A DNA stretch of 64,000 bases from a virus (lineage: Duplodnaviria; Caudoviricetes), in the IMG/VR virus record IMGVR_UViG_3300027860_000004, positions 66,282 to 130,281 of that record; one strand, 5' to 3'. The notes below the pieces were generated by a model. The model saw only the letters and a list, made by a program, of their open reading frames with translations, was not told where the DNA came from and ran no database searches. Made by a program: the position numbers and the translations under genes. Each line of letters begins with the position of its first letter. The stretch's first letter is position 1. This document shows, one piece after another, positions 54,939 through 54,999 of the stretch.

Positions 54939-54999
54939 GGGACCGCAGCCGATGCGGCATGACAGGTAAATGTGGGTTCAACTCCCATCGGTTCCACCA
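54939..54999 (+). ncRNA. 61-nt mini-tRNA lacking the anticodon arm, G3:U70 Ala identity, CCA encoded
   Basis: GGGACCG/CGGTTCC-A-CCA; GCCG/CGGC D-like hairpin; GTGGG-TTCAACT-CCCAT; own promoter TTGACA-17-TATACT. Confidence 0.8.

What the first reader, a model, noticed from the sequence alone, without database searches (positions are those of the whole stretch)
54939..54999. 61-nt anticodon-less mini-tRNA with alanine identity elements
Seen: 7-bp acceptor with G3:U70, discriminator A, encoded CCA, a canonical T-arm and a small D-like hairpin. Only 13 nt remain where the anticodon and variable arms should be, and it has a dedicated consensus promoter. Known: G3:U70 plus A73 suffice for AlaRS charging, as in the tmRNA tRNA-like domain. 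Inference: a stand-alone tmRNA-like domain that could titrate SmpB or EF-Tu, donate Ala non-ribosomally, or act in trans with a neighbouring ncRNA as a split tmRNA.
Basis: partly seen in the sequence, partly recalled or inferred. Interest (0 to 1): 0.78.

Follow-up and report, generated by a model that had tools for sequence, protein, structure and literature searches.

The report
Phage alanine tRNA without anticodon arm
A 130-kb uncultured phage carries, behind its own strong promoter, a real 61-base gene for an alanine-type tRNA that has lost its anticodon arm, so it could probably be charged with alanine but cannot read codons; its job is unknown, and a decoy role is the best guess.

Summary
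Window 54939-54999 (+) has a perfect 7-bp acceptor stem with G3:U70, A73, an encoded CCA, a canonical T-arm, a tight 4-6 bp hairpin and a 10-13 nt single strand. A TTGACA-17-TATACT promoter lies upstream. A second sample holds the identical sequence, so it is not an assembly error.

It is not a typical tmRNA tRNA-like domain. The tmRNA D-loop motif is missing and Rfam tmRNA scores 26.5 bits, against 52-57 for true TLD-only minis in other phage contigs. Its architecture is tRNA-Ala minus the anticodon arm.

I found six other 61-62 nt Ala-type minis in unrelated viral contigs, with covarying stems. Ten minis of the same build carry non-alanine acceptors.

A roughly 92%-identical relative lacks the whole 112-nt promoter-plus-mini cassette, so it is an accessory module.

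Nothing supports a split tmRNA. There is no complementarity beyond chance, no permuted tmRNA, and no SmpB gene in the phage record.

The most likely reading is a processed, alanine-chargeable acceptor-arm mimic or decoy. A dead remnant or a processing signal remains possible.

This scan has reported TLD-only phage mini-tmRNAs on other DNA (DS6A type). A sequence look-up with one such tRNA-type mini returned none.

The parts
54889..55000 (+). 112-nt accessory cassette (promoter plus mini-tRNA). It is present here and in run X2. In a ~92%-identical relative it is replaced by 14 other letters.
   Evidence: the X3 contig (1898 nt, depth 25.5) bridges 54639-55447 but skips 54889-55000. X2 record 1 covers 54300-55281 with 0 differences.
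54898..54926 (+). Sigma-70-type promoter P1: TTGACA, 17-nt spacer, TATACT. The -10 box ends 12 nt before G1 of the RNA.
   Evidence: 11 of 12 positions match.
54939..54999 (+). Mature 61-nt anticodon-arm-less tRNA-Ala-like RNA.
54939..54945 (+). Acceptor 5' strand GGGACCG (G3 of the G3:U70 pair).
54948..54958 (+). Tight hairpin GCCG-AUG-CGGC in the D-arm position. In the MFE fold it is extended by C8:G23 and A9:U22.
   Evidence: -20.5/-20.7 kcal/mol, against -12.0 for a canonical D-arm pairing.
54959..54971 (+). 13-nt connector AUGACAGGUAAAU in place of the anticodon and variable arms (10 nt unpaired in the MFE fold).
   Evidence: No complementary target beyond chance.
54972..54988 (+). T-arm GUGGG-UUCAACU-CCCAU.
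54989..54999 (+). Acceptor 3' strand CGGUUCC (U70), discriminator A73 and encoded CCA.
   Evidence: The last 26 nt are identical to the 3' end of tmRNA in three Acholeplasmataceae genomes and to a phage tRNA-Ala.
55001..55029 (+). Next promoter P2 (TTGACA-17-TATAGT). It drives the neighbouring ncRNA and is kept in the relative that lacks the mini. It is context, not part of the RNA.

Best explanation
This is a genuine small RNA gene: a tRNA-Ala 'top half', carried as an optional promoter-plus-RNA cassette in the ncRNA-rich early region of a ~130-kb myovirus.

Shown here:
- The sequence, the helices, the promoter and the encoded CCA.
- Identical presence in a second sample.
- Absence from a near relative.
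- Unrelated phage contigs carry 61-64 nt tRNA genes of the same build, with covarying stems.

Inferred:
- Host RNA polymerase transcribes it from P1.
- RNase P cuts the ~5-nt leader, and the 3' end is trimmed to the encoded CCA.
- Host AlaRS alanylates it through G3:U70/A73, which do not need an anticodon.
- Without an anticodon arm it cannot decode. It therefore acts as a mimic or decoy of alanyl-tRNA, or of the tmRNA tRNA-like end, for factors that read only the acceptor/T-arm helix. Candidates are AlaRS, EF-Tu, the SmpB-dependent rescue pathway, or defence toxins that attack tRNA 3' ends.

My odds: real tRNA-Ala-derived RNA gene and accessory cassette, about 0.8. Decoy or mimic function of any kind, about 0.4. 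Specifically blocking trans-translation, about 0.15.
For: Structure and identity set.

Promoter: 11 of 12 positions, in a region with 23 promoter-like sites against 8.9 expected.

Not an artefact: run X2 is identical.

Descent from the tRNA-Ala/tmRNA lineage:
- 28 of 28 nt at the 3' end match the L004 tRNA-Ala.
- 26 of 26 nt match the 3' end of Acholeplasmataceae tmRNA.

Not a simple deletion. The interior shares no run with the L004 tRNA-Ala (the only blastn match is the 3' 28 nt), yet it forms a perfect GC hairpin. Pair 4:69 is A:U, where L004 has G:U.

Recurrence elsewhere:
- A complete scan for a tRNA-Ala D-loop, a short connector, a T-loop and TCCACCA gave 22 stretches. Eight have a complete 7-bp acceptor at 61-62 nt (5 distinct sequences). 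The other 14 look like tmRNA 3' ends.
- One further mini is L141.
- In the 7-sequence alignment, 98.2% of cells are paired and 10 of 16 pairs change on both sides. 0 of 500 shuffles reach this, and slid controls give 40-48% paired.

Ala enrichment: with no alanine requirement, 6 of 16 distinct minis still carry G3:U70.

Precedent: the DS6A TLD-only RNA inhibits tmRNA (passages read in PMC4131195 and PMC11915505). Alanine minihelices are charged (PMC11392972 abstract).
Against: - There are no expression data. No listed run is on record as RNA.
- The nearest relative seen lacks the cassette, so it is dispensable. No covariation can be measured for this particular sequence.
- No homologue turned up in the metagenome or phage collections: searches gave 0 hits, and 0 of 325 records cover 80% or more of the query.
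- The D region differs from the other minis. The canonical D-arm pairing is disfavoured (-12.0 against -20.7 kcal/mol), so the usual D-loop/T-loop elbow may not form.
- A leave-one-out model scores it 41.5 bits, no better than ordinary tRNAs at 40-48 bits.
- 10 of 16 minis of the same build have non-alanine acceptors, so alanine charging may be incidental to whatever the class does.
- Acceptor complementarity was my selection filter, so part of the covariation is there by construction.
- No SmpB, AlaRS, FemAB, LPG_synthase_C or RtcB gene was found in the 78%-complete record. None of 10 neighbouring ORFs matches a Pfam family.
Confidence: 0.4

Rival explanations
1. Dead remnant: a decayed tRNA-Ala (or captured tmRNA-end) gene that lost its middle and now has no function. 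It would merely be carried along in a fast-shuffling region of promoter cassettes.
For: - The cassette is absent from the ~92%-identical relative in run X3.
- It is a single copy with no paralogue in the genome.
- No homologue was found in the collections.
- The D region is aberrant.
- ARAGORN does not call it, and no Rfam model reaches its gathering score.
Against: - All three helices are perfect, the CCA is kept, and a near-consensus promoter sits at the right distance.
- The interior is not what a simple deletion of a tRNA-Ala would leave.
- Independent phage lineages keep the same 61-64 nt architecture, with compensatory changes.
Confidence: 0.25
2. Processing or stability module: the tRNA-like fold serves as an RNase P / 3'-end processing site that shapes or protects neighbouring transcripts, as mascRNA does for MALAT1. 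On this reading the alanine identity is irrelevant.
For: - There is no terminator between the CCA and the next unit.
- The same phage places tRNA-like elements next to structured RNAs: 55187-55306 has a 10-bp closing stem plus a T-arm, and 36800-36914 is a tRNA with a 47-nt anticodon-loop insert.
- In other contigs the minis lie 5-13 nt from the start or stop of a small ORF (L043, L222, L224).
- One mini sits inside another tRNA's anticodon loop (L141).
- Non-alanine minis exist.
Against: - Here the mini is first in its unit, about 5 nt from the predicted start, so it has no upstream RNA to release.
- The downstream RNA has its own promoter, which the relative keeps without the mini.
- G3:U70 is over-represented among the minis: 6 of 16.
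Confidence: 0.15
3. Specific tmRNA mimic: a stand-alone tRNA-like domain that titrates SmpB and blocks or hijacks trans-translation, as reported for the DS6A TLD-only RNA.
For: - The acceptor and T-arm match tmRNA ends: the Rfam tmRNA hit and identity over 26 nt to the 3' end of Acholeplasmataceae tmRNA.
- The DS6A precedent.
- TLD-only minis are frequent in viral contigs (L034, L046, L074, L030, L173, L176, L203). This scan has also reported them on other DNA.
Against: - The segments of a tRNA-like domain that SmpB contacts (tmRNA-type D-loop, start of P2a; recalled from structural work, not from a call) are missing. The order is hairpin then single strand, the reverse of real TLD-only minis.
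- It scores 26.5 bits, against 43-57 for the real minis.
Confidence: 0.15
4. One half of a two-piece tmRNA that pairs with a neighbouring ncRNA, or the attP/att remnant of a phage that integrates into ssrA.
For: - Many structured ncRNAs lie nearby.
- The 3' 26 nt equal a tmRNA 3' end, as attP cores often do.
Against: - No complementarity beyond chance: 3 matches including its own opposite strand, 2.54 expected. The only exact complements found were its own opposite strand.
- ARAGORN found no tmRNA, and Rfam tmRNA_permuted gave no match.
- No tyrosine integrase was found in the record.
- The element has its own 5' acceptor strand and its own promoter.
Confidence: 0.03

Closest known systems
'TLD-only' (CDS-less) tmRNA of Mycobacterium phage DS6A (JN698994: 28478-28560). 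Also the CDS-less tmRNAs of jakobid mitochondria and Mallomonadaceae plastids.
   Same: It is a phage-encoded short RNA with a G3:U70 acceptor stem, a T-arm and no coding or anticodon part. It is likely chargeable and unable to decode. The published idea is that such an RNA inhibits tmRNA, perhaps by titrating SmpB (PMC4131195 and PMC11915505 passages).
   Different: DS6A (83 nt) and the TLD-only minis I found have an unpaired tmRNA-type D-loop (GG.TCGAC) followed by a capped P2a-like hairpin. They score 43-57 bits with Rfam tmRNA. The window's RNA has a hairpin first, then a single strand, has no such motif, and scores 26.5 bits.
Alanine minihelix and microhelix substrates of AlaRS (Francklyn & Schimmel 1989).
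   Same: An acceptor stem plus T-arm with G3:U70 and A73 is enough for alanylation. The basis is the abstract of PMC11392972 and the reference list of PMC9976931. The rest is recalled.
   Different: Those are laboratory constructs. This is a natural, promoter-driven gene with extra internal elements.
Anticodon-arm-less tRNA-like genes in other viral contigs. This is a working class defined here: L043/L213/L218, L141, L219, L222, L224, L227, plus ten non-Ala examples.
   Same: 61-64 nt, 7-bp acceptor, 5-bp T-stem, A73, encoded CCA, no anticodon arm, and often located in phage tRNA arrays.
   Different: They keep a canonical D-arm (GCTC-AGTGGTA-GAGY) and an 8-9 nt connector. The window's RNA has a 3-nt hairpin loop and a 13-nt connector. 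Three of them adjoin a small Cys-rich ORF that this phage lacks.
mascRNA (the 61-nt tRNA-like RNA cut from MALAT1), and the tRNA-like stable RNAs of phage T4 (species 1 and 2; recalled, not checked).
   Same: Small tRNA-like RNAs that are processed by tRNA enzymes and do not decode.
   Different: Rfam's mascRNA model scores only 18.9 bits against a gathering score of 42.5. mascRNA is eukaryotic, is cut from a long transcript, and is not an alanine acceptor by design.

Membership tests
tmRNA tRNA-like domain (TLD-only / CDS-less tmRNA) | 7-bp acceptor stem with G3:U70, discriminator A, 3' CCA | tested here: met
tmRNA tRNA-like domain (TLD-only / CDS-less tmRNA) | T-arm with a TPsiC-type loop stacked on the acceptor stem | tested here: met
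tmRNA tRNA-like domain (TLD-only / CDS-less tmRNA) | Unpaired tmRNA-type D-loop (GGNUUCGAC-like) directly after the acceptor stem | tested here: not met
   In the alignment this part of the model is deleted. The motif is present in L046, L034, L173, L176 and L203 and in DS6A.
tmRNA tRNA-like domain (TLD-only / CDS-less tmRNA) | P2a-like helix (or its capped stump) leaving where the anticodon stem would be, after the D-loop | tested here: not met
   The order here is hairpin and then a 10-13 nt single strand. This is the reverse of the TLD-only minis.
tmRNA tRNA-like domain (TLD-only / CDS-less tmRNA) | Rfam RF00023 score at or above the gathering score (47 bits) | tested here: not met
   26.5 bits. 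L034 scores 56.6, L046 56.2, L074 52.3 and L030 43.3. DS6A scores 43.2.
tmRNA tRNA-like domain (TLD-only / CDS-less tmRNA) | Binds SmpB | not testable with these tools
   No RNA-protein tool is available. The phage record has no SmpB gene.
Canonical elongator tRNA-Ala | Cloverleaf with an anticodon arm and an Ala anticodon | tested here: not met
   Only 13 nt lie between the hairpin and the T-stem. ARAGORN does not call it, and there is no Rfam tRNA hit at the gathering score.
Canonical elongator tRNA-Ala | Alanine identity set: G3:U70, A73, G1:C72, G2:C71 | tested here: met
   The 3' 28 nt are identical to the tRNA-Ala(UGC) of L004.
   MAFFT lines up A14, G18, G19 and A21, and 3 of 4 D-stem pairs form. 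That fold costs -12.0 kcal/mol against -20.7 for the tight hairpin.
   41.5 bits, E 1.6e-07, full length. Ordinary tRNAs score 40-48 bits with the same model.
Two-piece (permuted) tmRNA | Separate acceptor and coding pieces that pair; a tag reading frame | tested here: not met
   ARAGORN found no tmRNA in the whole record. There is no RF04321 match at E <= 0.05. Linker complement is at chance level.
mascRNA/menRNA (RF01684) | Rfam score at or above the gathering score (42.5 bits) | tested here: not met
   18.9 bits, E 2.2.

The most novel reading that the evidence does not exclude
Phages carry a so far undescribed class of 61-64 nt tRNA genes from which the anticodon arm has been precisely removed. 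The class is enriched for alanine identity, because AlaRS needs no anticodon. On this reading the RNAs are charged and act as non-decoding aminoacyl-RNAs. They would serve as decoys that soak up host factors or defence toxins aimed at tRNA 3' ends, or as donors or partners for small phage proteins such as the Cys-rich ORF found next to three of them. The window's RNA would be a divergent member with its own early promoter.
Probability: 0.3. Interest if true: 0.75.

Novelty: new variant of a known kind. Interest (0 to 1): 0.5.

Why it matters
Phage tRNA genes are usually read as codon-usage helpers or as replacements for tRNAs cut by host defences. A tRNA that keeps everything needed for processing and alanylation, but has no anticodon arm, cannot serve either purpose. 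It points instead to a role for the acceptor end itself.

One published case exists: the DS6A tag-less tmRNA, which inhibits ribosome rescue. The present element shows a second route to a similar object, starting from a tRNA body. My scans suggest that such genes recur in unrelated phages and are missed by ARAGORN, the only tRNA finder tested here.

If they are charged decoys, they would be a new kind of RNA-based host-takeover or counter-defence tool, and an easy one to test.

Tried and rejected
**Split or permuted tmRNA.** Rejected.

**attP remnant.** No tyrosine integrase was found. The element also has its own 5' strand and promoter.

**Non-ribosomal alanine donor for a phage enzyme.** No FemAB, LPG_synthase_C, AlaRS or RtcB was found in the record. 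No Pfam family matches any of 10 neighbouring ORFs. The record is only 78% complete, so this evidence is weak.

**Alternative genetic code, to explain the ORF-poor region.** No code clearly opens the frames. I did not pursue this.

**Relatives.**
- The TerL and neighbour-protein scans of viral contigs found none.
- The phage database gave only distant TerL hits of 24-29% identity.
- blastn of the locus against phages gave no match.
- Two metagenome pattern scans gave 0 hits.

**Expression.** No RNA holder was listed.

**Host.** The 26-mer 3' end occurs only in the tmRNA of three Acholeplasmataceae genomes. I do not take this as a host assignment.

**First two wide pattern scans.** Ordinary tRNA-Ala genes swamped them, because the D-loop GGG matched.

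**Cys-rich ORF.** No Pfam or PHROG family. No homologue by the word-based search. None in this phage.

**Literature.** Searches found no description of phage anticodon-arm-less tRNA-Ala genes. The library lacks most subscription journals. Mao et al. 2009 was seen only as cited by others. Supplementary files were not consulted.

Full report
**Setting**

The window is the last 64 kb of a 130,281-bp IMG/VR virus record that CheckV rates 78% complete. The record encodes a tail sheath, a portal and a large terminase, so it is a myovirus.

It has no close relative in the phage database or in viral contigs. The best TerL matches are 24-29% identical. The backbone is about 33% GC. A 40-kb stretch of 37-49% GC holds few long ORFs, several tRNAs and many promoter-like sites.

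**The observation**

At 54939-54999 (+) the sequence is, in order:
- GGGACCG, the acceptor 5' strand;
- CA;
- GCCG-ATG-CGGC, a small hairpin;
- ATGACAGGTAAAT, a 13-nt connector;
- GTGGG-TTCAACT-CCCAT, the T-arm;
- CGGTTCC, the acceptor 3' strand;
- A, the discriminator;
- CCA.

The acceptor stem has seven standard pairs, with G3:U70 and A4:U69.

[quoted passage not shown] It extends the small hairpin to six pairs and leaves ten unpaired bases. The energy itself is not exceptional (z -1.13).

Evidence that this is more than chance comes from two other results:
- Rfam's tmRNA model aligns both ends at 26.5 bits, with E 8e-07 for the whole window.
- The 3' 28 nt are identical to those of a complete tRNA-Ala(UGC) in an unrelated phage contig, L004.

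ARAGORN does not call the element.

A TTGACA-17-TATACT promoter ends 12 nt upstream. A second near-consensus promoter starts two bases after the CCA.

Run X2, from another sample and study, holds 54300-55281 without a single difference. The short form is therefore not an assembly error.

**What it is not**

It is not a typical tmRNA tRNA-like domain.

The published phage example is DS6A, at JN698994 28478-28560 (83 nt). I also met TLD-only minis in viral contigs: L046, L034, L074, L030, L173, L176 and L203. All of these have an unpaired GG.TTCGA(C) D-loop right after the acceptor stem, followed by a capped hairpin. They score 43-57 bits with Rfam tmRNA.

The window's RNA has the opposite order, lacks the motif and scores 26.5 bits.

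It is not half of a split tmRNA:
- The complement of the 13-nt connector is found three times with up to two mismatches, one of which is its own opposite strand, against 2.54 expected.
- ARAGORN finds no tmRNA in the record.
- Rfam's permuted-tmRNA model gives nothing.

The record has no SmpB gene and no tyrosine integrase.

**What it resembles**

The architecture is that of a tRNA whose anticodon arm has been taken out.

After filtering, 174 acceptor-complete matches were full length and 9 were short.

A sharper pattern asked for a tRNA-Ala D-loop, then 9-17 nt, then a T-loop and TCCACCA. That scan ran to completion with 22 stretches:
- Eight carry a complete 7-bp acceptor at 61-62 nt. They make five distinct sequences: L043=L213=L218, L219, L222, L224 and L227.
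- The other 14 lack a nearby 5' strand and look like ordinary tmRNA 3' ends.

L141 is a sixth example.

I aligned these six with the window's RNA. On the tRNA-minus-anticodon-arm structure:
- 98.2% of cells are paired.
- 10 of 16 pairs change on both sides.
- 0 of 500 shuffles reach these values.
- Slid controls give 40-48% paired.

Part of this is there by construction, because I selected for acceptor complementarity. The D-stem and the T-stem were not selected.

**Control for ascertainment**

Because I had imposed alanine ends, I repeated the scan without them (one search was a mistyped version). Of 70 stretches, my filter found 16 distinct 61-64 nt minis with a complete acceptor. At pair 3:70 they divide as follows:

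| Pair 3:70 | Distinct minis | Note |
|---|---|---|
| G:U | 6 | alanine type |
| A:U | 4 | one family |
| C:G | 3 | |
| G:C | 3 | |

Forty-eight matches had no nearby 5' strand.

Anticodon-arm-less tRNA genes are therefore a wider phage phenomenon. They are enriched for alanine identity but not restricted to it. Several sit inside tRNA arrays.

**How well the window's RNA fits that class**

It has the same length and the same ends. MAFFT even lines up A14, G18, G19 and A21.

However, the canonical D-arm pairing is worth only -12.0 kcal/mol, against -20.7 for the tight hairpin. A model built from the other six scores it 41.5 bits, which is no better than ordinary tRNAs.

I therefore treat it as a divergent variant and not a proven member.

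**Evolutionary status**

Run X3 holds a relative about 92% identical. One of its contigs bridges 54639-55447 but skips 54889-55000. That is exactly the promoter plus the RNA up to one base past the CCA. The contig has 14 other letters there, and it keeps the next promoter and its ncRNA.

The element is therefore an optional cassette in a region that shuffles promoter-led modules. It has no paralogue in the genome.

I could not read other relatives.

**Mechanism**

Shown here:
- The gene, its helices, its promoter and its CCA.
- Its presence in two samples.
- Its dispensability.

Inferred from established tRNA biology:
- RNase P and 3' trimming should mature it.
- AlaRS should charge it, since G3:U70 with A73 suffices on minihelices (PMC11392972 abstract; Francklyn & Schimmel 1989, as listed in PMC9976931).
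- It cannot decode.

The reading I favour is a mimic or decoy for factors that see only the acceptor/T-arm. The published DS6A effect on tmRNA is the nearest precedent (passages in PMC4131195 and PMC11915505). The missing tmRNA-type D-loop makes SmpB titration only one option among several.

Rivals:
- A dead remnant.
- A processing or stability signal. This draws support from other tRNA-like elements beside structured RNAs in this phage, and from minis that abut ORFs or sit inside another tRNA elsewhere.

No expression data exist.

**Novelty**

Tag-less mini-tmRNAs in phages are published. This scan has also reported them repeatedly on other DNA (11 findings).

A tRNA-bodied, anticodon-arm-less alanine acceptor was not found in seven literature searches. 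A sequence look-up with one tRNA-type mini (L043's) in the scan's notes returned no such finding. I rate it a new variant of a known kind.

Interest is moderate. The single element is unconserved and dispensable. The class it points to is testable and may be new.

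Noticed in passing
L141:1700-1900 (+): A 61-nt Ala-type mini (1775-1835) lies inside the anticodon loop of a complete outer tRNA: acceptor GCGCCAG/CTGGCGC, with loop CTTT[mini]TAA. Without the insert the outer tRNA would read as tRNA-Lys(UUU). It is a tRNA within a tRNA.
   Followed up: partly
L043:3829-4014(-), L222:55-228(+), L224:1171-1380(-): A small, basic, Cys-rich ORF of 58-70 aa lies 5-13 nt from Ala-type minis in three unrelated contig groups. Its C-terminus reads ...CC..(Y/W)G(S/T)C.CS. It has no Pfam or PHROG family, no word-based homologue, and no copy in the window's phage.
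   Followed up: partly
L252, L270, L276, L282, L281, L262, L272, L253, L257, L256 (coordinates): Ten distinct 61-64 nt anticodon-arm-less tRNA-like genes with non-alanine acceptors (A3:U70, C3:G70 or G3:C70). Some lie directly after ordinary tRNA genes.
   Followed up: partly
L046, L034, L074, L030, L173, L176, L203 (coordinates): True TLD-only mini-tmRNAs of 60-74 nt in viral contigs. L034, L046 and L074 score above Rfam's tmRNA gathering score. The L074 region also matches the permuted-tmRNA model.
   Followed up: partly
window 36800-36914 (-): A tRNA-like gene (Rfam tRNA 44.9 bits) with a normal acceptor (GGAAATA/TATTTCC, A73, CCA), D-arm and T-arm, but a 47-nt insert in place of the anticodon loop. 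ARAGORN does not call it.
   Followed up: partly
window 55187-55306 (+): A tRNA-like RNA with a 10-bp closing stem and a canonical T-arm but no CCA. ARAGORN miscalls part of it as tRNA-Ala(cgc). It follows a 145-nt structured RNA (55036-55180) and is well conserved in runs X3, X4 and X6.
   Followed up: partly
window 47718-47791, 48309-48384, 48524-48596 (-): Three further tRNAs pass Rfam's gathering score but are not called by ARAGORN. They flank an ORF (47808-48263) that an earlier scan note calls an HNH nuclease; I did not check that.
   Followed up: no
window 14000-56000: A 40-kb stretch of 37-49% GC in a 33% GC phage. It has few ORFs of 150 aa or more and many consensus promoters. No alternative stop-codon reading clearly restores long frames.
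   Followed up: partly
window 54835/54836: The X3 relative has 36 extra letters here, just before a 53-nt stretch that is identical in both. This is another module-scale difference next to the mini cassette.
   Followed up: no
L129:584-929 (-), L130:2431-2456, L131:2-27: Among one genome for each of 185,579 species, the 26-mer 3' end of the mini occurs only in three Acholeplasmataceae genomes. ARAGORN calls it as the 3' end of tmRNA in L129. L130 reads as a tmRNA by eye, though ARAGORN does not call it. L131 was not inspected. Their tRNA-Ala genes differ.
   Followed up: partly
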